Below are positions 11,271 to 61,269 of a stretch of 64,000 bases of DNA, one piece after another. A program made the translations under genes and the position numbers. Within the stretch, counting starts at the first letter, position 1, and each line of letters opens with the position of its first letter. The stretch comes from Barthelona sp. PCE (taxonomy: Eukaryota), in assembly GCA_040285745.1 (NCBI GenBank), contig JAUFOR010000002.1, positions 186,001 to 250,000 on the forward strand, in the 5' to 3' direction. The notes below the pieces were generated by a model. It was not told the DNA's origin. It saw only the letters and a list, made by a program, of their open reading frames with translations, and ran no database searches.

Positions 11271-12078
11271 ATGGAAGATTTACCTAAACTAACTGGTAAG
11301 TACATTAACTTTCTCAAAATAGACTTTTCAAGATATATCCAAGATTATTATGCTAATAATCTTCTGACAAAAGAAAAGATAGATGTTGACCGTTGCTCAT
11401 CTATTTTATACAATGCTTTGACACGAATGGGTACGTCTGGGCTTGAACCAATTCAAAACGTTATTCTCGCAGTTCTGACATCGCAGCGTAAAAATACTTC
11501 AGGATATGGTTGAAAAGTTTGTCGCTGCTGTCAAAGACAACATAATAGCATTTAGAGAATTTTGTTATGATGTGGATAATAACCGAATCAAATATATTGC
11601 AAAGTATCCTGCAACCATGGGTATCTTTCGTTTATGTGACCGTTTTAGCTGCTGTGGAGAATATGTAATGCCCGAACTACGTGAAGCATTTGAAAATTTT
11701 TTATTGCAGGGTTCTGAAGGAAACTGAAGAAAGAGGATTTCATTCCATTTTTCAACTCGTGGTATGAAGATGAAGCTGCATCGCTCACTGCCATACATTA
11801 TAATTAGAGATGATGTATCCACCACTGTTTTAGATGAATTTGATGACGTTAATAGATTCAAATGGGAGCTCTTGCAGCGACGCAGAAGCGAAAAAGAGGA
11901 AGAAGATGTTGATCAACCTCCTGTTAAAGTACAAAGACTTTCTGGGGGATCTGGTACATATGAATATTTTGATGGTTTAGAAGAATCTGATTCTGACATT
12001 TCAGATTCTGAAAATGATGATTCAATTTGTGAAGATGATAATATTTTTGGAATATACACCTATTCAGAATCCGAATAG
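11271..12078 (+). pseudogene. interrupted reading frame (three tandem ORF fragments), probable pseudogene or unresolved spliced gene
   Basis: ORFs 11271-11513, 11506-11727 and 11764-12078 are on one strand. The first junction needs a frameshift; the second is one in-frame TGA. Confidence 0.35.
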
Positions 12079-16506: not shown

Positions 16507-16541
16507 TAAATTTTGATAACGCATTTTCATCCTTTTTCATA

Positions 16542-19115: not shown

Positions 19116-19484
19116 TTAGATAGTTAATGAGAAAACAGAGTTAGTGATGAACCATTCTCCATCATCATCCTCTAAAAGATGGAAAAATTCAGCAAAAGCA
19201 AGAGGGGTGTCGTCATCATCGTCCATAACAACGTGACCAGTGACCAAAATATTGACACCATCACCAACAGAAGGCTGACCATCGCAGTTGCTGACGTGAT
19301 GCTCAATAGTCTTGTATTGAACAGTTTCCTCGAGATGGTGCTTGATTTCCTTGGGACCCTCGAGTGAAGTACCTGTGTACGTCATGTATGAACCATCACG
19401 ATAAAATGAACATATATCAGTTCTATCTTCCCCATCAAAGACATCATAGTAGGCCTTAACGAATTCGTCAACGAAGTCTTCCAT
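19116..19484 (-). CDS. NTF2: nuclear transport factor 2
   Basis: FV..YY.VFD...R.....Y...S.MT..G....G...I, DGQP, ILVTG, F.EFFHL, WFITN.VF. Confidence 0.88.
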   Translation of the reverse strand: MEDFVDEFVKAYYDVFDGEDRTDICSFYRDGSYMTYTGTSLEGPKEIKHHLEETVQYKTIEHHVSNCDGQPSVGDGVNILVTGHVVMDDDDDTPLAFAEFFHLLEDDDGEWFITNSVFSLTI

Positions 19485-19525
19485 TGTTATGTTTTGAAGA
19501 AAGTGGAAAAAAAATTTCTACTTGT

Positions 19526-22046: not shown

Positions 22047-22339
22047 TGTTTGATAAGAGTTACGATTGTTAAACAGAACAAATATTTCCCATTCATAGTT
22101 TTAATATGGTGTGGATCATATTGCATAAATATTATCCATATTTCACATGTGGTAAAGCACAGTACAATAAATTGGAGTATGTTTGAGTATCACAGACTTG
22201 TGTGGAGTTTCATGTTGTATTGGTAGTCTGAATGTAATTCCTATCATATAGAGCTCTTATACAAGAGGGATAAGTGTAATTATGGAGTGAGGATCGTTTA
22301 CAAATTTCTTACCTTTTCTTACCTTTCACGGATTTCATC

Positions 22340-33708: not shown

Positions 33709-34049
33709 ATGTCTAAGGTCGACGTAGCACAATTGGAACAACAGTACGGCGCCAATGCCAATTTCAGCCAGTCACTGGGCGGTACTAGTATGTATCTTCA
33801 GCCATTGCCTTTTAGATCTAAAATTTAGTATATTCCACTACACCTGGTGGCACTGTATATGTATATGATCCAGCAGAGCTTTTGAAGCTTTCAGCCAGTC
33901 CCCTTTCAGTTCCTCCTGCTGATTTACCTGTAATTCCCGGTGTTACAAACAATTTCCACCCTGAAGATGTTACAGAAGTATCTGAAGACTTAAAGAATGA
34001 AGATGCTCATGATCACAATAGTGAAGATGACATCTTTGAGATGGAATAG
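33709..34049 (+). CDS. EIF4EBP: eIF4E-binding protein (4E-BP), two exons 33709-33787 and 33829-34049, 99 aa
   Basis: Spliced product contains SLGGTIYSTTPGGT, the eIF4E-binding YxxxxL-phi motif YDPAELL, SPLSVPP..LPVIPGVT and C-terminal TOS-like FEME. Confidence 0.9.
33788..33828 (+). other. 41-nt spliceosomal intron in the 4E-BP gene
   Basis: GTATGT...CTAA...TTTAG. Removal restores the conserved GGT-I-YSTTPGG. Confidence 0.9.
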
Positions 34050-35944: not shown

Positions 35945-36385
35945 ATGCAAGAAGCACTGTTAAACGATGAAGAACCCTATGTCACAATTCTGATTCATGT
36001 AAGAACTTTAATAGGTCACGTGAAGGAGGTGTTGCATGATCTCAGGGAGATGGAAGCTGAAGAATTGGCCTCAGCTGTTGTTAGTACACGGAATGTGTTT
36101 GTAAGTTCTCGAAATGAATTATCAGAAGTGTTAGGATGGCTTCCTCCTTTGGCAGAGAACAAGCTAAATAAGGAAGATGTGGAAGAATTTGAGGAAATTT
36201 TGAGAAAATATCTGCAAGCTAACGATTTTATTGTGAGGCTTGAACTTGAGCTTATTCGTCTGCCTTACTTGGAGTTCGAGACAGAATTGGACCATAGAGT
36301 GGAAAAAGCAAGAGTATTAGAAGAATTGCACATCCATAAAATGACTTTTAATGAATGTAATGAACTTTTGATGGATTTTGAATAG
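35945..36385 (+). CDS. hypothetical acidic helical protein
   Basis: 146 aa ATG ORF, Glu/Leu rich. Confidence 0.6.
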   Translation: MQEALLNDEEPYVTILIHVRTLIGHVKEVLHDLREMEAEELASAVVSTRNVFVSSRNELSEVLGWLPPLAENKLNKEDVEEFEEILRKYLQANDFIVRLELELIRLPYLEFETELDHRVEKARVLEELHIHKMTFNECNELLMDFE

Positions 36386-40106: not shown

Positions 40107-41510
40107 TTACTCATTACGCCTCACATGGATCTCTGAGCATGTATATGCACTATGTGCCATACTCAATAAGCTGATCATCATTGCGCTATTGTTCTGCATC
40201 GAAGCATTGGTTGATATCATTACTTTGCGAATATTTAAGCTCAAGAAAGAGCTCATCTGATGTAAATAAGTGCTACATTTCAGTCCAATGGCGTTGTTCC
40301 TGATATCTAAGACGTACCATTCTGAATTATCGTGATGCGAGTTGGTGCTGATATTGGTGCAAAGACTTGTCAGCATTAAATATAAAGATTCATCATTCAA
40401 TTCGCAATTGTTCATACGGAGCGCTTTAAGAGACCTCAAACTTTGATTCATAAATACTGAAGTGAAAGCATCAATAACCAAGTCAAAACGTAGGTTGTTA
40501 CCGCTGAGATCCAAGTACTGTATTGATACGGACGATAAAGCTTCGAGAATGTGGACCAGTGTAAGCGGGGGAAGGTTACAGTTAGGGACACCGAACACCT
40601 CAAAGTTGATACCCATACTCAAAAGGAAGCTAATAAGTGCATTATCTATAGATCCTAATACACAACTGTCTAAAATAAGTGTTGTTATACTTGAATTGCA
40701 TGTCAGACCGTCAAAGAAATGGTTCCACCCAGTATTTACCCTGGAGATATTCTTAACATATAAACGCTTCAATCTACACATTGGATTCGCTAAAAAGTTA
40801 CTCAACAGCGGCATGTATGCATTTGTTAAGCCACATGAGTCGAATGTTATCTCTGATACGCAAGCATTGTGACAAAGTCGAAGTATCATATCCAAATCAG
40901 TTAGACTGACATATTCATTGATTATAAGAGCTTCGCCCTCGTTCGGTACAATGGAATTAGCAGACTCGACCTTGTTCAACAGTTTAGCTGCAATAATGGA
41001 AACAGTGGCATTTAAATTTCCCATATCACGAGCAAGAGAGTTAAAATCTACACTGATCATTTGCATTTCAATGTTATCTACCCATTGTTCCATGATCTCT
41101 TTTGTCTTTGCTCCCATTATAAGAACCCTATTATCACTTGTAAGAGAAAAAAAGTGAGGATATGCCTGTGGTTCTTCACTGTCATCTTTAACATCCTGCT
41201 GCATTTCTTCTTCGGTAAGGAATGCCTGGGGATTGATCTCTGCAACAATAATATTTTCAATATTCATGATTCCCCTAGGCTGTCCAGATTCATCCTCGTT
41301 TTTGTAATATAAAAGGAATTTACCTCTTAATACAAAGTGACGTAGCTTCCAATTCCTGCGTAGCCGACCCTGTTTAATTAAAGGTCCCCTATAAACAATG
41401 GGAAAATCAGTAATTTTGTCTAAATCAAATTCCTCATCCCTTGTATGTGTATTTTCAATTTCATCCTCCAGATTGACCTGGCTACCACTCTTAGAGAAGG
41501 GCCACGGCAT
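40107..41510 (-). CDS. PH domain + RNI-like leucine-rich repeat protein
   Basis: GPLIKQG...NWKLRHFVL...LLYYK...W PH domain; LDLSGNNL, LRMNNCEL, LDIRNNAI LRRs. Confidence 0.85.
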   Translation of the reverse strand: MPWPFSKSGSQVNLEDEIENTHTRDEEFDLDKITDFPIVYRGPLIKQGRLRRNWKLRHFVLRGKFLLYYKNEDESGQPRGIMNIENIIVAEINPQAFLTEEEMQQDVKDDSEEPQAYPHFFSLTSDNRVLIMGAKTKEIMEQWVDNIEMQMISVDFNSLARDMGNLNATVSIIAAKLLNKVESANSIVPNEGEALIINEYVSLTDLDMILRLCHNACVSEITFDSCGLTNAYMPLLSNFLANPMCRLKRLYVKNISRVNTGWNHFFDGLTCNSSITTLILDSCVLGSIDNALISFLLSMGINFEVFGVPNCNLPPLTLVHILEALSSVSIQYLDLSGNNLRFDLVIDAFTSVFMNQSLRSLKALRMNNCELNDESLYLMLTSLCTNISTNSHHDNSEWYVLDIRNNAIGLKCSTYLHQMSSFLSLNIRKVMISTNASMQNNSAMMISLLSMAHSAYTCSEIHVRRNE

Positions 41511-41590
41511 GTATATGAGGGAGAAAAGGTTAGAAGTTGTTTTACAATTGTTTTTGTTGTTTAACCCATTTCAATATTGTTAATACCGAT

Positions 41591-42565
41591 ATGTCAGCAG
41601 CAAGATATGTTGACGCATCCAAAATAGGATTGAGAGAACCTGGAAGAAGGTCTAACGAAGAGAAAGTTTATGAAGATGAAGATCAAGTCCATTATGTCAA
41701 ACGTTCCACACCAATAGTGAACGCCCCAGCAGCACCCATTATCAATGATGACATCCCCCAAGCAGCTGTTGAACAGGAACAACAACCAATTTATGAGCCG
41801 GAACAACCGACTGTTTCTGAGGGAAGGTCAAGAAGCAACTCTGCAAAGAGGAAGAGCGAGGAGGATGAAGTACCTGAAGCTTCTAAATTGCGTACAATAA
41901 TAACGCTAATCATCATCGCATCAATTTTTGGTATTGTTAGTCGAAGTGTCTTTGGAAGCAACACACTGTGTACGCTAGACAACGTGCGTATCGAGCGTGG
42001 GTATAAGTATTCCATTAATAAGCCTGTTGTCGAGTCCAGTGAGTATGTGCCTACTGGTGCCATAGTTTTAGGATCAGATGTTCACTTTAGAACAGAAACT
42101 TATGTAGTTGGGGTTGACAAAAGATGTAGGACAGTTACTAAATATAGACAGATGGAAGAATACGTTGAAACTATCGCTACTAATGATGCCAATGGTTATT
42201 CAGAACGAGATATTTATCGTAAAGTTGACGTACCATACACAGAGGAGGAGTGTGAGGAGATTGAAGTTACAGAGACACGTGATGTTCCTTACACAATATA
42301 TACTTATGAAGTTATGCGTGAGAAAAGAGAAAAAGTTTTTAACAACGGTGATTGTGAAACAGTTATTGGATTCCCTAGTCTTCCTGAGGGTGCATACAAG
42401 ATTGAGTCATACGGAAAGGCTGTTCTTGTTATGATTGATGATAACGATCATGTTGTTGAGTCAACAATTGCTGAACGTGAATTTGCAGATTATTGCCAAC
42501 GTAGGAACAAAATGTTTCAGGTGACCAAAGGTCTTTTTAGGGTTAAAAATATTGCTCAATTGTAA
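41591..42565 (+). CDS. single-pass membrane protein with beta-rich extracellular domain
   Basis: Disordered N-terminus, TM IITLIIIASIFGIV, then a Tyr/Glu/Thr-rich domain. Confidence 0.75.
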   Translation: MSAARYVDASKIGLREPGRRSNEEKVYEDEDQVHYVKRSTPIVNAPAAPIINDDIPQAAVEQEQQPIYEPEQPTVSEGRSRSNSAKRKSEEDEVPEASKLRTIITLIIIASIFGIVSRSVFGSNTLCTLDNVRIERGYKYSINKPVVESSEYVPTGAIVLGSDVHFRTETYVVGVDKRCRTVTKYRQMEEYVETIATNDANGYSERDIYRKVDVPYTEEECEEIEVTETRDVPYTIYTYEVMREKREKVFNNGDCETVIGFPSLPEGAYKIESYGKAVLVMIDDNDHVVESTIAEREFADYCQRRNKMFQVTKGLFRVKNIAQL

Positions 42566-48438: not shown

Positions 48439-51400
48439 TTACCAAAAAGGACACCAACCAAAATAGGCTTGTGCAAGATTCTCAGAACTGGAGGCTGAAA
48501 GAATTAAGCGCTCAACTTGTTCTTCAACAGAGATCGTTTTTTGATTACTATCGTCAAATTCAACACCATAAAGCTTTTGACGTACGCGCTCGATTGCATT
48601 CAATGCTTTTTCATTTAGTAATGCTGTTGCATCAGAATCCTGACGAACTGGAACAATTGTATCGTCCAGATCCTCATCGAATTGCTCTTCATATGTGTCA
48701 GGATTGAAAGGCTGGGGTGCAATTAGACGGAAACTCAAAATTGGATCATAAATAAACGCTTCGAGCAATGCTTGAATTGTTTCACGGTTGTGACGCACTA
48801 GTTCCATAACGTTCTGTGCGGTCTGACGGAAAATACCTTCAATTCCAGAGATACCCATAGCCTTAATGAGAGTTCGAGTAAGTCGGAAAGGAACCTTTTC
48901 AGGGTAACGATCACGAATCATTGCAACCTCGAAACAATCACCGAAATCAATATGAATGATGTTACCAGCGTTACGATTGATCATAATATTGGCCAAGTGG
49001 CGATCACCCAAACCAATAATATAACCAACCATGCTCATGGTTGCTAAAGAACGAGTAAAGAATGAGCGATGATTCAGCCACAACTCGCATGAACGTGCAC
49101 GAAGCCAAATCATACGGGCAAGATCATTACCGGGATTGGAATTGATACCGGCCTCGAACACAAACAATTTCTGTAATACACTGAGATGTTGATAGTTATC
49201 TGTGTATTGTCGCATACGACGGACTTCACAATCATAAACAACACCGTACCTCACTCTGTAGTCACGGATCAAGCTGTGCAACGTATCACAACCATCAACC
49301 CATGAAAGGAGACCAGTCTTTGTATTGAGAGGGATAGCTCGGAAAGTTTGAATGGCAACAGACTTGCCTGAGAAACGCATGTCACTCTTACAAATACTGT
49401 CAATGTAGTCGAGAATTTGCATAAAACGTTCGTCTTGACGAAGATCTTCATGACCCTTAAGCAAATATATATAATCACGACCGTCAGTTCCCACAATTGT
49501 CACCTGACGGGGGCGCTGTTTGGTGGGATATATTGAAAGACGTTCCCTAAAGCAACGAATACGTGGAGTATCATCCTTCTTTGAGTAAAAACCTGGAAGA
49601 TGTAGTGATAAATCTGAAGCTTTCTTTAAATCCGGTGATGTATGACACAAATCAATGTGGTCAGTTGCAAGTGAAGCCTTAAGTTCACGAACAATACTGC
49701 TATAGTTCTGAAATGCTTCGGAAATATGCGCCGAACTGGAGGCAGAATTAGTTTTGGTCTTCTGTAAGCAATCATATGCCTGTTGTAACCGGACGCCAAA
49801 CATTGCCTTGAACGACTTCTCCGAACGTGTTTGCATCTCTCCATTAAGTTCAGCATGAAGAGGAATCAACAGATCGAGCACACCTTGAGTGTCTTTAGAT
49901 TCACCGTGATAGAGCTTGATCGCCTTGTCGATAGCGCTGTGCCACTTCTCACTAAGCAAAACTGCTACTCTAATAAGTTCATTGCGTACTAGTGCTGCAT
50001 CGGAAAGCAACATGCCGTGCCTGTTACCTAACTTGTCAAACAAACGTTTAGCAAACTCTCTGATACCAGGGTTACTGTCATCAGCAGCAACCTGCAACGA
50101 CCAGACCAGAGCCTGGGCGTGATGGTCCACCAGCTGTCCCAACAGGGAAGATATGATAGCTCCATGTGTATTGAGACGGGCAATGATCTGCGGGATAACA
50201 GCAAGCCAGACATTAATAGGGAGACCAGACACCAGAGATGTAGCCTTCTCAATGCTATGGTTATATTTAATCCAAACATCTAACAAACGTAACTTATCCT
50301 GAAGATCTGTGTCACCACCAATTTCAACGGCTCGACAGAATGCTTCTAAAGCAGTCTTTGCAACGCGAACAAGATCGACATCATCCATAGTTGACTCGTT
50401 TTCCATCTTCTTCAAGATGTCCCATAGCCTGGTAGCATAGAGATGCCACGGCTTGTAGGAGTTGGGATCAACCATGGTTGCATAACTGTAAAGACTGAGG
50501 AGTTCTGGTGAATCTGGAGCAAATATTAGTGACTGATCAATAGAAGGATCACTTTTAACGTGCCACTGGCCAAGTTTCATGAATATCTTTGACTTTAGCT
50601 TGTTGTTGACAGGTCTGAACTCATGTTCAAATGTTCCATTCTGAATATTTTCAACAAAATTCGTCATCATATCAAACGCAGCCGCTCTTTTACCGCATCT
50701 GTACATATGCTTCAAATAGACGTAATCAACATGGTGATTATGCTCTCCAATAAGGATTTCAAGTATACGACTTGCTTGCTTCTCAACATTAAACCGGTTG
50801 CACAGTTGTACATACTGCAAATACAGGTCAATATCCTCATTCTTTGGAATAACGGTGCTTCTCAACAGTAAAAGTTGTCGCCAAACTTCTTCGGTCATGC
50901 TACAACCTTCCATACGTTTGTTCCACATTTGCTTGAACCTCTCTTTCTCAAAATCACGATTAGAAGCAAGTTGTGAGTATTCAATCTGTTCCTCGAGTTC
51001 TGCTAGTTGTTGCATGATGAGCAGTAAGTTATAGGCACGGTCATACGACTCGATGATAAGTGGACGAATCTTAACAGAGGTTTGTTCACGACACTTGTTG
51101 ATCCACTCGCGACAGAGCTTGAAATCCTGTCTCTTAAACGCCAGGATGGATCGGAAAAACGTACCAGTGACAGACAGAGATGACATGTCAGATTCTACAA
51201 CATTACGCATTGTTCCCCAATCCTGAAGATTCCAAGCCGCACTAGCTGCAAGATTGGACGCATCAACCTGATCTTTTGACGATACAGAAACGTGTTCAGC
51301 GTCTCGAAGATTAATGGTCGAGTTTGTGTGCTTCAGTTTAACAAGAGTCTCTTGGAATGCGTGATATGCAGTAATAACACGCTCCCAATCACCCAGTTTG

Positions 51401-54400
51401 TATAAGCAACGAATACGACCAAGACAGAGAGGGATCTGCTTCTCTGGGTTGGTCTCGCTTTCAACCTCCTTACCATAAAGATCATAGGCCTTCTCATAGT
51501 AATTGAGCTGTTCGTACCAACTTGCCTTGATTGTTTTAATATGACGAATGAGTTTGTTCGAGTGACAGTGAATCATTACGCCCAATGCACCTTGGTGCTC
51601 GTGCAGAGTATTGTTGAGAGAAATAATATTCTCAACTGTTCGAGCTGGTGACGACTCAAACACCTGCTCACAGTAGTAGAGAGACTTGGCGTACGCATCA
51701 CACTTCGCAGCGAGATCCGCAAGCACTGAAGGACTGATATTAAGTGAAATAGAGCGATGCTCTAAAAACTCGCACAAATTCAGCAGTTTCAATAACAGAT
51801 CGTTGGGAATTGTCTTCGAACTGATGGCAAGTTCAACACTCTCAGTGAGTTCCTTCTGTGCATCAGGACTGCTGTGATATACTTCAGCGAATGCAACATT
51901 GAAAACATCATATAATAAAGGCGTGTGATGTTGGGCAACAGTCTTGAGGCAACGTAACACCGGAATGGGATTGTGCTCAAGAAGTTTTGTGCTGAAATCT
52001 TGGAACCAATTAAGCCATTCTTCTCTTGTTGCGTTTTCATGAGATACGTTAAGCGTGCCCATTATGGAGTCTGTGAAGTCAAAAGACGCAATCTGACGTG
52101 TTGCAGGGCTTGATTCTTGGATTATTTCTTTGCGAAGTGGGTTGGGACCCAGAATAGTCTTTTTGCTCGTTGATACCTTGGATGGATTACGGCAAACAGA
52201 GCGTACCAGGTCCAGATAACGTGTGTGTGAGATATGGTTGCGCTCAAGACATTTCTGAACTGTTGGAACAAACAAAACATATGTGCTTCCAAAGTGCTGA
52301 ACCAGTCGACACAGAGTGTCCATGACAGTACTGTGAAGGAAACGAGGCGCAGAGTTAAGCGTCTCACAAATCATGTGGACGAGCATGCTCGAGTACATAG
52401 TGAGATCGACAATTGATGCGAGCTTACCCAGCGTTTGGAACGTTTTAATCACTGTTTGATCGTTAACATCATCTGCTGAAATAAGTTGCATCATCGTTGG
52501 AATCACCAAGAATAACCAGTCATCGAGCTTTTCTCCAAGAATAACGAGTGTGTCGAGTACTTTGTCAGCAATAAGACAGTTGAAGTTGATATTTGGTTTC
52601 AATGTGTCCAAAAGTAAGGGCATAATCATAGGCATGTACTGTCTGAACTCGTCTGACAATGCACGGCTGAGCTCCTCGATGAGACGCACAATCTGTAACT
52701 GAAGACCGCTTCTCCAACACTCGTTAATAAGGTAGAAGAGTGAATCAACATGAATCTGGATTTGCTCCTTAACAACGCTCACAAGATTGGCAAACGACTT
52801 AAATAGCGCCTCCTGAAGACTTTCATCTACCATACGGATGGCACGAATAAATGTACGCATCACAGCAGGAAGCAATTGAACAACGTACTGATCTGATTGC
52901 TCAAAAATATGTGTGATTGAGTTGGCAATAGCCTTACGAAGCGCTGTCTCATTGTTGTTGTTGAAGATATCCAGCAACAACCTGATAACAAGATCAGCTG
53001 TATAGTGTTTATCGTTAGCGCTCAGTGTTTGTGTATTCTCAGGCTTCTTCTTGGTCTTGTCAGTTGAAGCTTGCATAACCTTGATGAGATTAGGATCGAT
53101 GGCTCCGATCGTACCGATGAGATGAAATAATTTGACAGTCAACTCATCGTCGTAATCCGTGGATGCCTCTGTCAAAAGAGAATCGAGTAAGTTGGGCCAA
53201 AGATGATAAGGTTTCGTTGTGAAACCGGTAGACCGCACAATTGCACTCATTGCATCGATACAACACTTTTTAACCTGCACAGAACCATAGCCCAAAACGT
53301 TCTGAAGCAATGATAACAGACTAGTGATGATACTTTCATCAATTGATGGTCCACCAACAAGACACACCTGACTAAGCAGTTTCAAAAGAGATGAAAGATA
53401 TGGACCTGGGTATGCAACGTTAATTTCAAACTTTTTCTGCAAAAACGTAACGATAGTTGGACAATATGGTCGAACAAGTTCAGGAGCAGCCTGTGTGAGG
53501 TGTCTTAGCAATAGTGGAACAGAAGGATCACTGTTTCCTTCCCATACAATTTCTGTAAGTAAATGCAAAAGAAGATTGCGGAGGGTAGGAAGAATGGATG
53601 CAGAATTTTTGAAAGCAAGTCGGCCGAGCAACTCAATCGAGGCTACGCGGATATCATAATCACGGTCATTAAGTGTGATTGACAGTGCCCGAAGCGCTTC
53701 AGGTTGAGATAGTGATTTGTCATAGCGAATATCAAGGCATTGTAAAACAGTACGCCTAATGTTACAGTCTGCATCACCTACAGCTGTCACGAGCAAGTGT
53801 GAAAGCACATCGTGCACAATAGTTGTTTGAAAATGACCCAGATGCAAACCATTCGGAGGGATTAATAAGGCACAAATAGTTTTGACTGCCTCCAAACGAA
53901 CACTCGGTTCGTCATATTCAAGGAATGCTACGAGTGCATCCTTTACGAAGACAGTAAGTGTGATACTTGCAAAACTGAAAGAACGTAGTGCTCTAAAGAC
54001 ACTAACCAGCTTCTCAGGCTTGTTGTTAGCAGGTGGCTTTGGTGGTAAACTGAAGGGTAAGCGTCCCATTGCATTCTTCATCTCAAAGAAAGCCTGCTTC
54101 TCAAACGCGCGTAATTCACGTGTATCAAGATCATAAAGAGTAATCTGCGAAATAGAGATGAGCTTGAATTGAACCTCCAACAGTAGTGATGGATCAACCA
54201 AGACAATCTCTTGAAGTACGCTACATACATGCTCACTAAGTGGTAACCTAAACACCAGATCAAGGACACGTGTTGTACATGTACTAGTATCAACAACCTC
54301 CTTTTTCTGCTCCTTTTTAAGACGCAGTGAGCGAGTGATTGCTGCAAGTGCTCGTAAAATAATACAATCTTCGATGTTAAGCTTGCCACGAAGGGAACGT

Positions 54401-55482
54401 TCAATAATTTGTTCAATAATATCAATCGTCTCTGAGAAATGCATGGAAAAACGACCACCAACAGCGTGAGCAATTTTAGTAATTGACTCAAGTGCTACCT
54501 TCTTGTAGTACTTAGAGTCAGCAGCAACAGTCAACAAAAACGCCAAAATCTGATGATAATCGTGCATTCCAAACTGATCTGGTAAAACATCAGTAATAAT
54601 ACCTAACAAACGCACTACTTCGCTATGGATAACACCCTTACGAGAGTTACGAAATGCCCAAACAACCTCATATATCTTATATATATACTGCGAAAGAAAA
54701 TCAAGCGAGACATTAAGCACAAACTCGCCTAAAGCCATCAGGTATCCCCGAATAACATCACTTGTGATACTGTTCGTTGTGGATAGGCCTTGCATGAGAG
54801 AGTTATAACATACTTCAAATAGACGATTCCTACGATCATTATCTCTGTTATTAATAATATTCAGTGTATTACTAAACGCACGAACAGCTTTACGTGCAAT
54901 CGTCTGTTTGGAATCAGTAATTCCAATCCAAATTATGTTGAGGAAGTCGTTGATGCGAGTAGCAAAAATGATTGGACTATTAGCGGCGAGTTCACACAAA
55001 TTACAAACAAAAGAATATCGTTTTAAATCATTAGACTCTCGTTGAAGACCTTCAAGGGCGACAGACAAATCGTGGGATACAAACTTATGCATTGTTGTTC
55101 CACAAGACACGGAAAGATGACCCAAAACTTTGGAACTTAATTCTGCTAATATCTCTGAACTAGCCATAAAGTGACGAATGTAATGAGCACAGAACGAAAC
55201 CTTTGCGATAGGATCACCGAATTGAATGTCAACCAACTCATCAACGATCTTTAAGCCAAGTAACCAAAAATACGTCTGCTTCATGCTTCTAAATCGCTTC
55301 AGGTATGCGTATATCGATTTCGTGAACAATAGAACATGTTCTGGTGATAAGTCTTTGTAATGCTGCTCAATTGCTTCCCTAATCTCCATTGCTGCAAGTG
55401 ATGCAGCTTCGAGCTCGTTCTTTGGCATCTTGTTCAGTGAGCATTGCTGCTCTAGTAATTCTATAGGCCGTGATTCGACCAT
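48439..55482 (-). CDS. TOR: Target of rapamycin kinase (HEAT, FAT, FRB, PI3K-like kinase, FATC)
   Basis: LLKGHEDLRQDER, GYIIGLGDRH, HIDFGDCFEVAM.R..YPEKVPFRLTR, C-terminal GWCPFW. Confidence 0.98.
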   Translation of the reverse strand: MVESRPIELLEQQCSLNKMPKNELEAASLAAMEIREAIEQHYKDLSPEHVLLFTKSIYAYLKRFRSMKQTYFWLLGLKIVDELVDIQFGDPIAKVSFCAHYIRHFMASSEILAELSSKVLGHLSVSCGTTMHKFVSHDLSVALEGLQRESNDLKRYSFVCNLCELAANSPIIFATRINDFLNIIWIGITDSKQTIARKAVRAFSNTLNIINNRDNDRRNRLFEVCYNSLMQGLSTTNSITSDVIRGYLMALGEFVLNVSLDFLSQYIYKIYEVVWAFRNSRKGVIHSEVVRLLGIITDVLPDQFGMHDYHQILAFLLTVAADSKYYKKVALESITKIAHAVGGRFSMHFSETIDIIEQIIERSLRGKLNIEDCIILRALAAITRSLRLKKEQKKEVVDTSTCTTRVLDLVFRLPLSEHVCSVLQEIVLVDPSLLLEVQFKLISISQITLYDLDTRELRAFEKQAFFEMKNAMGRLPFSLPPKPPANNKPEKLVSVFRALRSFSFASITLTVFVKDALVAFLEYDEPSVRLEAVKTICALLIPPNGLHLGHFQTTIVHDVLSHLLVTAVGDADCNIRRTVLQCLDIRYDKSLSQPEALRALSITLNDRDYDIRVASIELLGRLAFKNSASILPTLRNLLLHLLTEIVWEGNSDPSVPLLLRHLTQAAPELVRPYCPTIVTFLQKKFEINVAYPGPYLSSLLKLLSQVCLVGGPSIDESIITSLLSLLQNVLGYGSVQVKKCCIDAMSAIVRSTGFTTKPYHLWPNLLDSLLTEASTDYDDELTVKLFHLIGTIGAIDPNLIKVMQASTDKTKKKPENTQTLSANDKHYTADLVIRLLLDIFNNNNETALRKAIANSITHIFEQSDQYVVQLLPAVMRTFIRAIRMVDESLQEALFKSFANLVSVVKEQIQIHVDSLFYLINECWRSGLQLQIVRLIEELSRALSDEFRQYMPMIMPLLLDTLKPNINFNCLIADKVLDTLVILGEKLDDWLFLVIPTMMQLISADDVNDQTVIKTFQTLGKLASIVDLTMYSSMLVHMICETLNSAPRFLHSTVMDTLCRLVQHFGSTYVLFVPTVQKCLERNHISHTRYLDLVRSVCRNPSKVSTSKKTILGPNPLRKEIIQESSPATRQIASFDFTDSIMGTLNVSHENATREEWLNWFQDFSTKLLEHNPIPVLRCLKTVAQHHTPLLYDVFNVAFAEVYHSSPDAQKELTESVELAISSKTIPNDLLLKLLNLCEFLEHRSISLNISPSVLADLAAKCDAYAKSLYYCEQVFESSPARTVENIISLNNTLHEHQGALGVMIHCHSNKLIRHIKTIKASWYEQLNYYEKAYDLYGKEVESETNPEKQIPLCLGRIRCLYKLGDWERVITAYHAFQETLVKLKHTNSTINLRDAEHVSVSSKDQVDASNLAASAAWNLQDWGTMRNVVESDMSSLSVTGTFFRSILAFKRQDFKLCREWINKCREQTSVKIRPLIIESYDRAYNLLLIMQQLAELEEQIEYSQLASNRDFEKERFKQMWNKRMEGCSMTEEVWRQLLLLRSTVIPKNEDIDLYLQYVQLCNRFNVEKQASRILEILIGEHNHHVDYVYLKHMYRCGKRAAAFDMMTNFVENIQNGTFEHEFRPVNNKLKSKIFMKLGQWHVKSDPSIDQSLIFAPDSPELLSLYSYATMVDPNSYKPWHLYATRLWDILKKMENESTMDDVDLVRVAKTALEAFCRAVEIGGDTDLQDKLRLLDVWIKYNHSIEKATSLVSGLPINVWLAVIPQIIARLNTHGAIISSLLGQLVDHHAQALVWSLQVAADDSNPGIREFAKRLFDKLGNRHGMLLSDAALVRNELIRVAVLLSEKWHSAIDKAIKLYHGESKDTQGVLDLLIPLHAELNGEMQTRSEKSFKAMFGVRLQQAYDCLQKTKTNSASSSAHISEAFQNYSSIVRELKASLATDHIDLCHTSPDLKKASDLSLHLPGFYSKKDDTPRIRCFRERLSIYPTKQRPRQVTIVGTDGRDYIYLLKGHEDLRQDERFMQILDYIDSICKSDMRFSGKSVAIQTFRAIPLNTKTGLLSWVDGCDTLHSLIRDYRVRYGVVYDCEVRRMRQYTDNYQHLSVLQKLFVFEAGINSNPGNDLARMIWLRARSCELWLNHRSFFTRSLATMSMVGYIIGLGDRHLANIMINRNAGNIIHIDFGDCFEVAMIRDRYPEKVPFRLTRTLIKAMGISGIEGIFRQTAQNVMELVRHNRETIQALLEAFIYDPILSFRLIAPQPFNPDTYEEQFDEDLDDTIVPVRQDSDATALLNEKALNAIERVRQKLYGVEFDDSNQKTISVEEQVERLILSASSSENLAQAYFGWCPFW

Positions 55483-57975: not shown

Positions 57976-58184
57976 GCGTGAATCCAGATATTTTTCATTG
58001 TACAAAAAACATGCTAGTTGAGTAAAACATGTATTTCAAGGTTATAGAGCAGTTTATATGGCATTGACATCACATTTATATTGATAATATATGCACATCA
58101 ATGCAAAATCTAATACATTTTCAAAATATACTTTTTGTTCCGGTTTGAAACAAACAATGTTTATTCTAAAAAGGTTTTAGATAC

Positions 58185-58739
58185 CTAGAGCATGTGAATA
58201 CGCTTCTCAGTGTGGTAGTTGATAGCGCTCTTCTCAGCAACCTCAGTAGGTTTACCAATTGCAAGAGCCATACGGTAAGTATGACCTTCAGGGTTACCAA
58301 TCATCTCCATGATCTCCTCCTTGACGAAATCAAACAAACCGACGTTAAGGGTTCCGTAACCCTTAGCAGTAGCAAGTAATTGCAATTGCATCATCAATTG
58401 GCCAAGATCAACATCTTCCCAACCCTTAACCTTGGCTCTGTTGTTATCAATGGTGAAGAAAATTACAGTTGCTGCATCACATGTAATAGGACAATCGTTA
58501 GGACGATTCAAGATAGAACCCCAGCTCTCAGGGAGCTTCTCGGTACAGGTCATACCAATGCTGTGAGCACGCTCGTAGTCGTTTAAAGCCCACATGTGAA
58601 CCAAGTTCTGGTTGCAAGCACTGCAAGTCTTGGTAGCAATCTCCAACATTTCAGCAAGTTCAGCTTCTGGAATGGGCTGCTTGTCAAAGTTACGACAGCT
58701 GTAACGGGCTTCGATGGCTTCAGATACGGAGAGGGACAT
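58185..58739 (-). CDS. nitroreductase family flavoprotein
   Basis: AI.ARYSCRNF...PIP...L..ML..A...SA.NQ, D.G.....LQL.AT..GYGT, ALAIGKP. Confidence 0.9.
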   Translation of the reverse strand: MSLSVSEAIEARYSCRNFDKQPIPEAELAEMLEIATKTCSACNQNLVHMWALNDYERAHSIGMTCTEKLPESWGSILNRPNDCPITCDAATVIFFTIDNNRAKVKGWEDVDLGQLMMQLQLLATAKGYGTLNVGLFDFVKEEIMEMIGNPEGHTYRMALAIGKPTEVAEKSAINYHTEKRIHML

Positions 58740-59147
58740 AGTAATGTGGAATAGGTAAGAAAAGAAATTATGGATTTCATTCACACATCCTATGCTCAGG
58801 AGAGCGTATAGCGAGACTGTTTAGTATTTCAAGACTTGTTTATCCTTATTCGAAGCTTTTAAGTCAAACAGAAGAGAAAAACAAATTAAAATAATGTTAT
58901 GTAAATGGACGACATATCACCGTGCACTATGTAGCAATCCAATGATGCGTACCGTTGTAAAATATGCTAATTATCACGATACATCAATTAATAGTGCAAC
59001 TCAATTAATTTTATCATATTTCAAGAACTCTTTTCACATAAACAACTCGTTTCCAGTAACACATGCAGCTTACACAACATGAAACCTTTCAATTTCAAAG
59101 AGTTACATCTAATTTATTGGTGACATACAGGCGCTAGCCTTCAGACT

Positions 59148-59352
59148 TTATACTTGAGGTAGTAAACAGCGGAGGGGGACGAAGCGAACCGTCATGTGTA
59201 GTAGGTGTCCGTAGGACCCGATACGGTTTTTCTTACCTTTTTCAAAAAAAAAAAAGTTTTAGGCCACTTCCCGGACGAAACACCCTCTACACGTGAAGGC
59301 GAGCCTTCCCACGTGAGCGTTCCCCGACGTCAATAAACCTACTTCAGTATAA
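59148..59352 (+). ncRNA. candidate structured non-coding RNA, family unrecognised
   Basis: GC-rich island in an AT-rich intergenic gap with four nested helices. G.U wobbles favour the + strand. Confidence 0.6.
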
Positions 59353-59937
59353 CACATACGATCACTTTCCTTATTTACAAACTACAATCCGATCATATTC
59401 TTGTTGAACTGTCATATTCTTGACTACGTTCGTCCAAATACGTTTAAATCATTAATCAGACAATAAATGCTGGCAAGAATCCTTTTATGGATGAGATTGT
59501 TTGAATAGCTGTAAAATAGCTTAACTACAGCCTACTCTTTTGAATAATTTGACACATCACTTTATTAAAAGAACCCAACAAAAACGAAACTTTGTATTAC
59601 TCTCTATTCACAAAAACTGTGAGCAAAATATGCCCAGTTTCAACACATGCCCCAATTTGATCAAGGAAAGTATCTGTATACAGCTATATAAATATGATCA
59701 ACATACTATTGCTTATCAAAACATCTTAAATATGAGAATCATCACTTAAAGAAACGCTGACACGGAGAATACATGTGCTACCTGCTTGAATTAGAGTAAA
59801 GAAACCTTTTGCAAGTGATTTTGTTTTTGACACTTATTACAATAAGTACAACTTATCACTAAGGTTTTTTACATCTTAGCAACAATCTTAACAGCATATC
59901 CATACCTTTTTTAGCATATTTACAACATATAAATACT

Positions 59938-61269
59938 ATGGACGTAAGCAAGCCCACAGCTGAAGCAATGGCTGAAATTAAAGCCAAACACAAATTCTGG
60001 AGCACCCAGCTCGTACCCCAACCAAATTTGGAAGAGAATAACCTGCCTGAAGGACCTATTAAGGATTATAACATTGAAAGTAACCGAGCTGATATCAGAC
60101 CCATACCTTACAACCTTCCTGGTGGGTTCTCATGGGGCCTCATTAATATCAACGACGAAGAAGAACTTGAATCCTTGTTCCGTTTTCTTGAACATCATTA
60201 CGTTGAAGATGATCTTTTACGTTTCAGATATTCAAAGAAGTTTCTCAAGTACGCTCTGTCTTTGCCCAACATGAACCCAGAGTATGTCATTGTTATACGC
60301 GATGCAAACAACAATATTGTAGGTTCGATTACTGGTTCTCCTGCTCACTACAAAATCAGAAATGATGAGTATGATGTCGTAGAGGTCAACTTCCTGTGTG
60401 TTAAGAAGGAGCTCAGGAACCACCGAATTACACCTGTACTTATTAAAGAACTCACTCGACGTTGTAACATTAACGGTATCTTCCAAGCTGTTTATACGGC
60501 AGGAAAACCCCTTCCCAGGCCTTTCTTACGCTCCAACTACTATCATCGTTTGATAAACATTGAGAAACTTATCGATGTTGGTTTCTATGATACAAAGAAG
60601 CGTATAGATATAGAAAAGCGTATCTATGCTCTCCCAGATGTCCCAGTGACCGATTTTCGCCCTGTTGACGAATCAGACTTGCGTATCATCGTTGAGCGTC
60701 TCAATGAATATCAACGAACGTTTGAAATCGCCAGATTATTCACTGTGGAAGAAGCTAGACATCTTTTCCTGCCAATTGACGATGTTGTTTCCAGTTATGT
60801 ATGGGTTGGTGAACGTGAAAGGATTCTTGGCTTCGCATCATGGACTCTTGTTGATATGAGCGTTCTTGAGAACCCTAATCATGATTCTATGCGTGTTGCT
60901 TATCTGAACTACCACTTTCTTACTGATTTTGAGCACTTCAACTGTCCCAAGCCTGAACGATTCACCAACCGGAAACATCCTTCTGATGTAACAGTTGCTG
61001 ATCTGGAGGCTTGTGAAGAAACTATCACCACCCTCAACTTTGAACATGAGCCATTTGTCAACTCGATGAAAACACTCATTGAGAAATCTTTAATACATGC
61101 CAGAGATCATGATGAATGTGACGTGTTTAACTGTTTGGATAACCTCTATAACTCTGTTTATTTGGAAGATTTAATGTTCCTTAGGGGCAGTGGTAAGTTA
61201 CACTATTATCTATTCAACTACCGTGTAGATCCTGTCACACCAGTTGAATGTGGTGCACTATTATACTAA
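59938..61269 (+). CDS. NMT: glycylpeptide N-myristoyltransferase
   Basis: HKFWSTQ.VP, HYVED, RFRYS, EVNFLCV.K.LR..R.TPVLIKELTRR, QAVYTAG, F..GSG.LHYYLFNY. Confidence 0.96.
   Translation: MDVSKPTAEAMAEIKAKHKFWSTQLVPQPNLEENNLPEGPIKDYNIESNRADIRPIPYNLPGGFSWGLININDEEELESLFRFLEHHYVEDDLLRFRYSKKFLKYALSLPNMNPEYVIVIRDANNNIVGSITGSPAHYKIRNDEYDVVEVNFLCVKKELRNHRITPVLIKELTRRCNINGIFQAVYTAGKPLPRPFLRSNYYHRLINIEKLIDVGFYDTKKRIDIEKRIYALPDVPVTDFRPVDESDLRIIVERLNEYQRTFEIARLFTVEEARHLFLPIDDVVSSYVWVGERERILGFASWTLVDMSVLENPNHDSMRVAYLNYHFLTDFEHFNCPKPERFTNRKHPSDVTVADLEACEETITTLNFEHEPFVNSMKTLIEKSLIHARDHDECDVFNCLDNLYNSVYLEDLMFLRGSGKLHYYLFNYRVDPVTPVECGALLY

What the first reader, a model, noticed from the sequence alone, without database searches (positions are those of the whole stretch)
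59148..59352. Unrecognised ~205-nt long base-paired RNA element in the largest intergenic gap
Seen: the ~1.2-kb gap between nitroreductase and NMT holds a GC-rich island with nested helices. (1) TTATACTTGAGGTAG 59148-59162 pairs with CTACTTCAGTATAA 59339-59352 (14 bp, one bulge). (2) GGGGGACG 59174-59181 pairs with CGTTCCCC 59318-59325. (3) TCATGTGTAG 59192-59201 pairs with CTACACGTGA 59287-59296. (4) GGTGT 59204-59208 pairs with ACACC 59280-59284. There is a side hairpin AGGC-GA-GCCT (59297-59306) and an apical region with T-tracts and a 12-A tract. Three helices each contain a G.U pair on the + strand, which would be A.C mismatches on the - strand, suggesting selection at the RNA level. I could not match it to tRNA, 5S, SRP helix 8, RNase P/MRP P4, U3 or spliceosomal snRNA consensus. 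Inference: a divergent essential RNA (e.g. telomerase RNA, given the closing stem and U/A tracts) or a new ncRNA class.
Basis: partly seen in the sequence, partly recalled or inferred. Interest (0 to 1): 0.8.

Follow-up and report, generated by a model that had tools for sequence, protein, structure and literature searches.

The report
Hairpin flanked by intron splice signals
A 205-base hairpin in the largest gene-free gap of a compact, intron-poor eukaryotic genome is most likely the folded core of a long intron on the opposite strand, not a new essential RNA, but no expression data could be obtained to prove it.

Summary
The four helices are in the sequence as described. The + strand folds at -65.7 kcal/mol, z -3.29 against shuffles. 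This is not exceptional for the window: 29 of 5104 windows fold better for their composition, mostly in coding DNA. The G.U argument for the + strand fails, because the - strand fold has 10 G.U pairs and the + strand fold has 6.

The solid facts are these. It is the GC-richest intergenic stretch. It lies in the largest ORF-free gap. No Rfam family matches. No second copy exists in the window.

A U2 snRNA lead (GUGUAGUA at 59196) was tested with my own covariance model and rejected: 3.5 bits, below chance controls.

The best lead is on the minus strand. GTATGT sits 1 nt before the hairpin and TCTGAAGGCTAG 2 nt after it. These match the only ORF-proven intron of the window, in a 4E-BP gene: GTATGT...TCTAAAATTTAG. 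Long introns with internal stems are known in diplomonads and Trichomonas (PMC6679479).

Against this reading: no coding exons, no upstream promoter-like motif on that strand, no RNA data.

Verdict: probable structured intron (about 0.45). The new-RNA reading is not supported.

The parts
59148..59352 (-). Long imperfect hairpin: four main helices with a T/A-rich apex. It is the proposed internal stem of the intron.
   Evidence: The - strand MFE is -64.5 kcal/mol with 70 pairs (10 G.U). The + strand MFE is -65.7 kcal/mol with 61 pairs (6 G.U).
59354..59359 (-). GTATGT, the candidate 5' splice site. One base (G, 59353) separates it from the first paired base of the hairpin.
   Evidence: It is the same hexamer as the 5' end of the ORF-supported intron at 33788-33828. 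GTATGT occurs 43 times in 128,000 strand positions.
59134..59145 (-). TCTGAAGGCTAG, the candidate branch point fused to the 3' splice site. It starts 2 bases (AG) after the last paired base of the hairpin.
   Evidence: It has the same T-CTRAA-N4-AG spacing as TCTAAAATTTAG of the proven intron. TCT[AG]A-N5-AG occurs 12 times per 128,000 positions. The narrower TCT[AG]AA-N3-TAG occurs 2 times, at these two sites only; that narrow pattern was drawn from both sites, so it is post hoc.
59134..59359 (-). Candidate 226-nt spliceosomal intron: 7 unpaired bases, the 205-nt hairpin, then 14 bases.
   Evidence: In the fold the first 7 bases are unpaired. Of the last 14, 12 form a small 4-bp hairpin whose loop holds the putative branch A. 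In one search it is the only one of 6 GTATGT...CTRA-N5-AG pairs spanning 210-314 nt whose closing helix abuts both signals.
59235..59244 (+). ACCTTTTTCA at the apex of the hairpin. It is a copy of the pyrimidine-rich motif enriched within 60 nt upstream of start codons.
   Evidence: CCTTTT is 10.6x enriched, ACCTTT 8.3x, TTTTCA 6.7x in 34 upstream regions; this 10-mer occurs once in the window. Its meaning here is unknown and it points the other way from the splice signals.
59244..59255 (.). A12 on the + strand, T12 on the - strand, at the apex.
   Evidence: From general knowledge of Pol III termination at T runs: T12 on the - strand and two T5 runs on the + strand would stop Pol III, so a full-length transcript of either strand is unlikely to be a Pol III product.
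59196..59203 (+). GTGTAGTA, identical to the branch-site-binding word of U2 snRNA. Tested and rejected as a U2 gene.
   Evidence: it is the only copy in the window; the U2 model gives 3.5 bits here, against 5.7-17.9 bits for chance loci carrying the same 17-mer and 53-78 bits for real U2 sequences.
59290..59315 (.). Two CACGTG palindromes (59290, 59310) that can form a local hairpin competing with helix 3. GACGTC lies at 59326.
   Evidence: CACGTG has 13 sites in the window. Two others lie 3-5 nt upstream of start codons (27392, 33271).

Best explanation
The hairpin is the internal stem of a long (226 nt, 59359 to 59134) spliceosomal intron read on the MINUS strand. The layout is GTATGT, then G, then the 205-nt stem-loop, then AG, then TCTGAAGGCTAG.

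Proposed mechanism (inferred, not shown): this genome has very few and very short introns; the one proven example is 41 nt. In a long intron, arm-to-arm pairing loops out about 200 nt. That leaves 21 unpaired bases between donor and acceptor, so that a spliceosome adapted to short introns can bridge the 5' splice site and the branch point/3' splice site.

The host transcript appears to be non-coding. It would be a spliced non-coding RNA or a long leader upstream of the nitroreductase gene.

Shown: the hairpin, the two flanking motifs and their exact abutment, and their identity of form with a homology-supported intron in the same window. Inferred: transcription of the minus strand, splicing, and the role of the stem.
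For: (1) The window has one well-supported intron. ORF 33822-34046 matches Pfam eIF_4EBP positions 39-116 of 117 (E 1.1e-14) but has no start codon. Removing 33788-33828 (41 nt, phase 1) joins it in frame to an upstream ORF that has an ATG. In one search it is the only one of 16 listed candidates that has more than 200 nt open on both sides and a closed read-through. Its ends are GTATGT and TCTAAAATTTAG.
(2) On the minus strand the hairpin is preceded by GTATGT+G and followed by AG+TCTGAAGGCTAG. The 3' motif agrees with the proven one at 8 of 12 positions and has the same spacing.
(3) Chance estimate from the window's own frequencies (GTATGT 43, CTRA-N5-AG 58; TCTRA-N5-AG 12, all per 128,000 positions). 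The hexamer within 0-3 nt of a given hairpin end on either strand has probability about 3e-3. The 3' motif within 0-5 nt of the other end has probability about 6e-4 to 3e-3. Jointly this is about 1e-5 to 1e-6, before a discount of 10-100x for the many motifs I tried.
(4) Of 6 GTATGT...CTRA-N5-AG pairs spanning 210-314 nt in the window, only this one folds so that the closing helix abuts both signals: 7 and 14 bases outside.
(5) The - strand fold has more pairs and more G.U pairs than the + strand fold (70/10 against 61/6).
(6) Precedent, from passages read in PMC6679479. Long introns of Giardia, Spironucleus and Trichomonas form stem-loops that bring the splice sites to 25-45 nt apart, about the length of their short introns. 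Their branch point is fused to the 3' splice site (VCTRACACRCAG, RCTAACAARHTAG). Giardia's 5' site is VTATGTT.
(7) This is the largest ORF-free gap in a genome whose gaps are mostly 30-300 nt, which fits an unannotated non-coding transcription unit.
Against: No coding exons. All three phases across the junction meet a stop within 8 codons upstream with no ATG. Downstream ORFs are at most 19 aa from an ATG. 25 ORF fragments of the gap gave no Pfam match (best E 0.09).

The 3' site lies 394 nt upstream of the nitroreductase ATG. That gene has its own promoter-like motif just upstream, so a 5'-UTR intron of that gene is unlikely.

None of the five promoter-proximal words occurs on the minus strand between 59360 and 59937, whereas 26 of 38 genes have one within 70 nt upstream. 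The + strand of the gap has 13 such words against about 3.7 expected, including ACCTTTCA 64 nt upstream of the hairpin and ACCTTTTTCA at its apex.

The intron consensus rests on a single proven intron.

The minus-strand fold is only weakly better than shuffles: z -2.17; -1.27 for the 226 nt, 21 of 200 shuffles as good; -0.06 for 301 nt.

The unpaired distance (21 nt) is shorter than the 41-nt short intron.

A second GTATGT lies 5 nt downstream of the proposed 3' site (59128-59123). ACATAC-like words recur near the helix ends, so the 5' hexamer may not be fully independent of the hairpin sequence.

No RNA data are available.
Confidence: 0.45

Rival explanations
1. No function at the RNA level. 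The helices are a chance or decayed inverted repeat inside a GC- and CpG-rich regulatory island of the divergent nitroreductase/NMT promoter region. The island holds palindromic protein-binding words (CACGTG x2, CATGTG, GACGTC) and T/A tracts. The splice-like flanks are coincidence.
For: The fold is not exceptional for this window: 29 of 5104 windows are better. 28 windows (against the - strand) or 101 windows (against the + strand) have more long-range pairs. Arm-against-arm alignment gives z 3.0, but the best of 500 shuffles scored higher (31 against 25). Helix 3 pairs two near-palindromic E-box-like words. CACGTG also lies 3-5 nt upstream of two start codons. The gap separates two divergent genes. 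The apex carries a promoter-proximal motif.
Against: It leaves the joint abutment of GTATGT and TCTGAAGGCTAG to the hairpin ends unexplained (about 1e-5 by the window's frequencies). Other promoters in this genome fit in 30-300 nt, so a 1.2-kb regulatory region would be unusual. Helices 1 and 2 are not palindromic words. Only 4 of 13 CACGTG sites are truly intergenic, and two of those are in this island, so enrichment of that word outside the island is not significant (site 36017 lies in an ORF).
Confidence: 0.28
2. A stand-alone structured non-coding RNA of an undescribed class. It would be made by Pol II from the + strand, starting near promoter-like words at 59030 or 59084, or from the - strand.
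For: GC-rich island in an AT-rich, ORF-free gap. + strand z is -3.29. Promoter-like words lie 64 and 118 nt upstream on the + strand, and 13 such words on the + strand of the gap against about 3.7 expected. An ACA lies 1 nt after the closing stem on the + strand. No known family matches.
Against: No strand asymmetry in G.U pairs. The fold is unexceptional in context. Each arm alone is unstructured. Internal T5/T12 runs argue against a Pol III product. No second copy exists in the window. No homologue could be found, so covariation is untestable. The ACA is part of ACATAC, the complement of GTATGT, which is the rarer and more specific match.
Confidence: 0.2
3. A divergent U2 snRNA gene on the + strand. 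Its parts would be GUGUAGUA (59196-59203) as the branch-site-binding word, a 5-bp/8-nt-loop hairpin 5 nt downstream (59209-59226) as stem-loop IIa, AGUUUUAGG (59254-59262) as the Sm site, and the CACGUG hairpin as the 3' stem-loop.
For: GTGTAGTA occurs once in 128,000 positions, inside the island. The organism has spliceosomal introns. Giardia's U2 was found through a similar word, GUGUAGUU (passage in PMC3510501).
Against: I built a covariance model from 42 U2 5' domains fetched from metagenomes. It does not list the locus among its 6 matches in the window (E up to 10). It gives 3.5 bits when searched on the locus alone, with stem IIa deleted. Chance loci carrying the same 17-mer score 5.7-17.9 bits, and three real but odd U2 sequences score 53-78 bits. 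The GCU and GAUC words of U2/U6 helix I are GCG and CGUC here. Outside the selected 17-mer, identity to the A1 consensus is at chance level by my hand count.
Confidence: 0.02
4. Telomerase RNA or part of one. Either the hairpin itself is the RNA, or a roughly 0.6-1 kb minus-strand RNA has its 3' end made by spliceosomal cleavage at the GTATGT site.
For: Largest ORF-free gap. A splice donor follows about 580 nt of non-coding sequence. Spliceosome-made 3' ends of telomerase RNA are described in fungi (PMC4299874; search listing and abstract only).
Against: No CCCTAA, CCCTA, CCCTAAA or CCCTAAAA, nor their complements, occurs anywhere in the gap. There is only one CCCCAA (59650) and one TTAGG (59259). 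No 1.5-repeat template-like word stands out. The organism's telomere repeat is unknown, so this is not a full test.
Confidence: 0.03
5. A miniature inverted-repeat or foldback transposon, possibly an 'introner'-like element that carries splice signals.
For: 14-bp terminal inverted repeats with arms pairing over the whole length. Splice-like signals at the ends.
Against: No target-site duplication: the flanks are GTATGTG and AGTCTGA, and TTA/TAA belong to the inverted repeat. No other copy exists in 64 kb (best other blastn hit 19 nt, E 0.19). The whole genome could not be searched.
Confidence: 0.02

Closest known systems
Long cis-spliced introns with internal stem-loops in Giardia lamblia, Spironucleus spp. 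and Trichomonas vaginalis (Hudson et al. 2019, PMC6679479; passages and section 8 read)
   Same: An intron-poor, compact genome with uniformly short introns plus rare long ones. A GTATGT-type donor. A branch point fused to the 3' splice site at fixed spacing (CTRAN-N4-AG here; VCTRACACRCAG in Giardia). An extended stem-loop fills the long intron and leaves only a short single-stranded path between donor and acceptor.
   Different: The host transcript here has no recognisable coding exons. The unpaired path is 21 nt against 25-45 nt reported there and 41 nt for this organism's one short intron. The base after the branch A is A, not C. Whether the organism is related to those lineages is unknown: the best relatives of its NMT and mTOR are only 36-38% identical and taxonomically scattered. 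Splicing has not been observed.
Secondary structures in long Saccharomyces cerevisiae introns that shorten the effective distance from donor to branch point
   Same: A GTATGT donor in an intron-poor genome, with a stem between donor and branch point proposed to aid spliceosome assembly.
   Different: Yeast stems are shorter and lie in protein-coding genes, mostly ribosomal-protein genes. The comparison rests on recall only.
U2 snRNA (Rfam RF00004; consensus taken from alignment A1)
   Same: An exact GUGUAGUA word, a small hairpin just downstream, and a U-rich possible Sm site.
   Different: The covariance model score is 3.5 bits, below chance controls. The helix I words are not kept. This is not a member.

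Membership tests
Spliceosomal intron of the intron-poor type (donor GTATGT; branch point fused to 3' splice site) | Donor hexamer as in proven introns of the same genome | tested here: met
   GTATGT at 59359-59354 (-), identical to the donor of the 4E-BP intron at 33788.
Spliceosomal intron of the intron-poor type (donor GTATGT; branch point fused to 3' splice site) | Branch-point word at fixed distance from the acceptor AG | tested here: met
   TCTGAAGGCTAG against TCTAAAATTTAG: same CTRAA-N4-AG spacing, 8 of 12 positions identical. The consensus rests on one proven intron plus the published Giardia and Spironucleus motifs.
Spliceosomal intron of the intron-poor type (donor GTATGT; branch point fused to 3' splice site) | Removal restores a reading frame or joins recognisable exons | tested here: not met
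   All three phases are closed near the junction and no ATG is available. No Pfam match for 25 ORF fragments of the gap. The element could still be an intron of a non-coding or leader transcript.
Spliceosomal intron of the intron-poor type (donor GTATGT; branch point fused to 3' splice site) | Spliced junction or lariat seen in RNA | not testable with these tools
   No RNA run was listed and no genome is held.
Structured long intron (diplomonad/parabasalid kind) | An internal stem-loop abuts the splice signals and shortens the single-stranded path to about the short-intron length | tested here: inconclusive
   The stem abuts both signals, with 7 + 14 bases outside. The path of 21 nt is shorter than the 41-nt short intron. 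If the outer 7 AU-rich pairs open, the path is about 36 nt.
U2 snRNA | Branch-site-binding word GUAGUA | tested here: met
   GUGUAGUA at 59196-59203 (+), the only copy in the window.
U2 snRNA | Overall match of sequence and stem IIa to a U2 5'-domain covariance model | tested here: not met
   3.5 bits. The locus is not among the 6 window matches. Chance controls score 5.7-17.9 bits and real U2 sequences 53-78 bits. Rfam shows no U2 match.
U2 snRNA | GCU and GAUC words of U2/U6 helix I | tested here: not met
   They are invariant in 42 of 42 sequences of A1 and named in PMC6679479. Here they are GCG and CGUC.
Telomerase RNA | Template of about 1.5 telomere repeats | tested here: inconclusive
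   No complement of TTAGGG, TAGGG, TTTAGGG or TTTTAGGG lies in the gap. The organism's telomere repeat is unknown.
Any Rfam 15 family | Score at or above the gathering threshold | tested here: not met
   0 matches in 64 kb. The best sub-threshold match on the element is 19.2 bits against a 45-bit threshold, to a Caulobacter sRNA.
MITE / foldback transposon | Terminal inverted repeats, a target-site duplication and multiple copies | tested here: not met
   Inverted ends are present. No duplication is present. No other copy exists in the window. Genome-wide copy number is not testable.
H/ACA snoRNA | Hairpin-hinge(ANANNA)-hairpin-ACA with a pseudouridylation pocket | tested here: inconclusive
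   On the + strand ACA lies at 59354-56, 1 nt after the stem and 15 nt from the 11/13-nt internal loop. There is no second hairpin and no H box upstream. Each half alone is unstructured. The rRNA target is not testable.

The most novel reading that the evidence does not exclude
The largest ORF-free gap of this compact genome (58740-59937) encodes a non-coding RNA of an undescribed kind. It could be the 205-nt hairpin itself as a stable Pol II RNA from the + strand, where promoter-like words lie 64 and 118 nt upstream. It could instead be a roughly 0.6-1 kb spliced minus-strand RNA whose processing depends on the hairpin-bearing intron, for example spliceosome-made 3'-end formation as in fungal telomerase RNA.
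Probability: 0.15. Interest if true: 0.65.

Novelty: new member of a known kind. Interest (0 to 1): 0.3.

Why it matters
If the intron reading is right, this orphan lineage uses the same device as Giardia, Spironucleus and Trichomonas: rare long introns are folded so that a spliceosome tuned to very short introns can still splice them. No relative of its NMT or mTOR is above about 40% identical. This would add an independent data point on how reduced spliceosomes constrain intron architecture. It would also mark a spliced non-coding transcript in a genome with almost no introns.

The practical lesson for annotation is to check GC-rich hairpins in gaps for splice signals on both strands before calling them new RNA genes. 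As a candidate 'new essential RNA' the finding does not hold up.

Tried and rejected
(1) Whole-genome copy search: no genome is held.

No reads could be laid.

(4) Relatives for covariation. The best non-self hit for NMT is 38% identical. The best hits for mTOR are 36-37% identical, or 40% over 66% of the query. No close relative exists in the protein collection. The metagenome scan with the 17-mer returned 119 loci, none resembling the island beyond the motif.

(5) Rfam: nothing. tRNA scan: 0 genes.

(6) U2 snRNA lead: rejected.

(7) Two convergent or divergent paralogous small-RNA genes, one per arm: rejected, because the halves fold no better than shuffles.

(8) Coding exon or small protein in the gap: no ORF support and no Pfam match.

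(9) Telomere-template words and tandem repeats: none informative.

(10) Second structured intron at 41443-41662 (+): the fold does not close next to the signals, z -1.00. I take it to be a chance pair.

(11) Other 5'-UTR introns at intergenic GTATGT sites (22177, 35592, 11157, 33453, 56420): none convincing.

(12) A C/D-box-like stretch at 59454-59563 (-): it matched a Tetrahymena snoRNA model at 19 bits against a 100-bit threshold, E 0.89. This is not significant, and the rRNA target could not be tested.

(13) The identity of the organism could not be established.

Full report
SETTING. The window is a compact, almost intron-free eukaryotic sequence of 39% GC. It has 34 ORFs of at least 150 aa on both strands. 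Most gaps are 30-300 nt. The ORFs include mTOR, Ku70, Rad52, SLX1, a kinesin, a two-domain adenylate/guanylate cyclase and others.

The best relatives of its NMT and mTOR are only 36-38% identical and taxonomically scattered. No close relative is available for comparison.

The finding lies in the 1198-nt gap 58740-59937. The gap separates two divergent genes: a nitroreductase (-, ATG at 58739) and NMT (+, ATG at 59938). Two nominally larger gaps contain unlisted small ORFs. Other 'GC islands' in gaps are small genes: NTF2 at 19119-19487 (-) and a 4E-BP at 33709-34049 (+). This is therefore the largest ORF-free stretch. 25 ORF fragments from it gave no Pfam match.

THE OBSERVATION. All four helices are as described, and RNAfold recovers them. 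The + strand gives -65.7 kcal/mol, z -3.29, with 1 of 200 shuffles as good. The island is the GC-richest intergenic stretch (0.54 against 0.34 +/- 0.06) and has CpG o/e 1.21 against 0.70.

Three qualifications apply.
- First, I scanned 5104 windows of 205 nt on both strands, with MFE regressed on base counts. 29 windows did better, most of them in coding DNA. By long-range pairs, 28 windows (against the - strand) or 101 windows (against the + strand) did better. The fold alone is what a 64-kb scan yields by chance.
- Second, the - strand folds nearly as well: -64.5 kcal/mol, z -2.17. It has more pairs and more G.U pairs (70/10 against 61/6).
- Third, each arm alone is no more stable than shuffles (six sub-stretches, z +1.40 to -0.50). 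This is one long hairpin, not two small structured genes.

KNOWN FAMILIES. Rfam gave 0 matches at gathering thresholds in the window. It gave only sub-threshold noise in the gap (6 matches, E 0.89-4.7; 1 match on the element, 19.2 bits against 45). There are no tRNAs. No second copy exists in the window. No target-site duplication is present. No telomere-template word for four common repeat types lies in the gap. T12 on the - strand and T5 x2 on the + strand inside the element argue against a full-length Pol III product; this rests on general knowledge.

THE U2 LEAD, TESTED AND REJECTED. GUGUAGUA, the U2 branch-site-binding word, occurs once in 128,000 strand positions, inside the island on the + strand. 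A small hairpin and a U-rich site lie downstream.

I scanned metagenome contigs with a 17-mer pattern that fits both this locus and canonical U2. This returned 119 loci. I aligned 42 non-redundant U2 5' domains (A1) and built a covariance model (R1).
- With filters off, the model listed 6 matches in the window, none at this locus.
- On the locus alone it gave 3.5 bits, with stem IIa deleted.
- Controls: three real but atypical or truncated U2 sequences scored 53-78 bits. Loci that carry the same 17-mer by chance scored 5.7-17.9 bits.

The locus is thus less U2-like than chance matches. The helix I words GCU and GAUC, invariant in A1 and named in PMC6679479, are not kept.

THE INTRON LEAD. The window contains one well-supported intron. 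ORF 33822-34046 matches eIF_4EBP positions 39-116 of 117 (E 1.1e-14) but lacks a start codon. Removing the 41 nt at 33788-33828 joins it in frame (phase 1) to an upstream ORF with an ATG. Of the 16 candidates, it is the only one with more than 200 nt open on both sides and a closed read-through. The intron reads GTATGT...TCTAAAATTTAG, with a branch-point-like CTAAA at a fixed short distance from the AG. This is the form described for Giardia, Spironucleus and Trichomonas.

It is followed by AG plus TCTGAAGGCTAG (59147-59134). The 3' word shares 8 of 12 positions and the exact spacing with the proven one.

I searched for the 3' word as a prediction, after I had seen the donor hexamer and the 4E-BP intron. 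The window's own frequencies are 43 for GTATGT, 58 for CTRA-N5-AG and 12 for TCTRA-N5-AG per 128,000 positions. The chance that both abut the two ends of a given hairpin is about 1e-5 to 1e-6. I discount this by 10-100x for the many motifs I looked at. I also note that ACATAC-like words recur near the helix ends.

Six GTATGT...CTRA-N5-AG pairs spanning 210-314 nt exist in the window, about what chance predicts. Only this one folds with the closing helix next to both signals. A candidate at 41443-41662 does not.

Published precedent (section 8 of PMC6679479): long introns in these lineages form stem-loops that bring the splice sites to 25-45 nt apart, about the length of their short introns.

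WHAT SPEAKS AGAINST IT.
- The junction joins no reading frame.
- The acceptor is 394 nt upstream of the nitroreductase ATG. That gene has its own promoter-proximal motif.
- The pyrimidine-rich words enriched upstream of start codons are CCTTTT 10.6x, ACCTTT 8.3x and TTTTCA 6.7x. 26 of 38 genes have at least one within 70 nt. These words are absent from the minus strand between 59360 and 59937. On the + strand of the gap they occur 13 times against about 3.7 expected, including ACCTTTCA 64 nt upstream of the hairpin and a unique ACCTTTTTCA at its apex.
- Minus-strand stability is weak: z -2.17, -1.27 and -0.06 for 205, 226 and 301 nt.
- The unpaired path is 21 nt, not 41 nt.
- The intron consensus rests on one intron.
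- Nothing is known about transcription here.

VERDICT. The helices are real, but the fold alone is not beyond chance.

The most economical account of the hairpin together with its exact flanks is a long, internally paired spliceosomal intron on the minus strand, in a non-coding or leader transcript (about 0.45). The rivals are:
- a regulatory or chance inverted repeat (about 0.28);
- a stand-alone ncRNA of unknown class (about 0.20);
- U2 snRNA, telomerase RNA or a transposon, together about 0.07.

One RT-PCR across 59400-59100 on the minus strand would settle it.

Noticed in passing
window 33709-34049 (+), intron 33788-33828: An unannotated small gene for a 4E-BP homologue. Exon 2 matches Pfam eIF_4EBP positions 39-116 of 117 (E 1.1e-14). 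It is interrupted by a 41-nt phase-1 intron reading GTATGT...TCTAAAATTTAG. This is the only ORF-supported intron in the 64-kb window. An mTOR gene lies at 48439-55482 (-) in the same window.
   Followed up: yes
window 57976-58200 (-): The AT-rich convergent 3' region between the roadblock/LC7 gene and the nitroreductase gene folds into three hairpins. The fold is -48.5 kcal/mol, z -3.51, with 0 of 200 shuffles as good. It is among the best-folding loci of the window scan. It may be a 3'-end or terminator structure.
   Followed up: partly
upstream of most start codons, e.g. 22305-22326, 16524-16540, 58747-58770 (-): A pyrimidine-rich promoter-proximal motif of the form (A)CCTTTT(T)CA lies 5-45 nt upstream of ATGs on the sense strand. 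CCTTTT is 10.6x and TTTTCA 6.7x enriched in 34 upstream regions. 26 of 38 genes carry one of five such words within 70 nt. It resembles an initiator-type core promoter.
   Followed up: partly
window 19116-19487 (-), 11271-12078 (+), 35945-36385 (+): Gaps that look large by the >=150-aa ORF criterion hold small genes. These are an NTF2-domain protein (E 6.7e-20), three consecutive 73-104-aa ORFs in different frames, and a 146-aa ORF. At least the third of the three has its own promoter-like word.
   Followed up: partly
window 59454-59563 (-): A box C/D-like stretch with GUGAUGU near the 5' end and CUGA near the 3' end, upstream of the candidate intron on the same strand. It matched a Tetrahymena snoRNA model at only 19 bits (threshold 100; E 0.89), which is not significant.
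   Followed up: no
window 27392 and 33271: CACGTG lies 3-5 nt upstream of the start codons of two minus-strand genes. The studied island has two more copies 20 nt apart. It may be a transcription-factor site.
   Followed up: no
L001, L033, L095 (metagenome loci): Bona fide U2 snRNA genes that carry UCAUGUGUAGUA instead of the usual UCAAGUGUAGUA. The A-to-U change seen in the window's word therefore also occurs in real U2 sequences.
   Followed up: no
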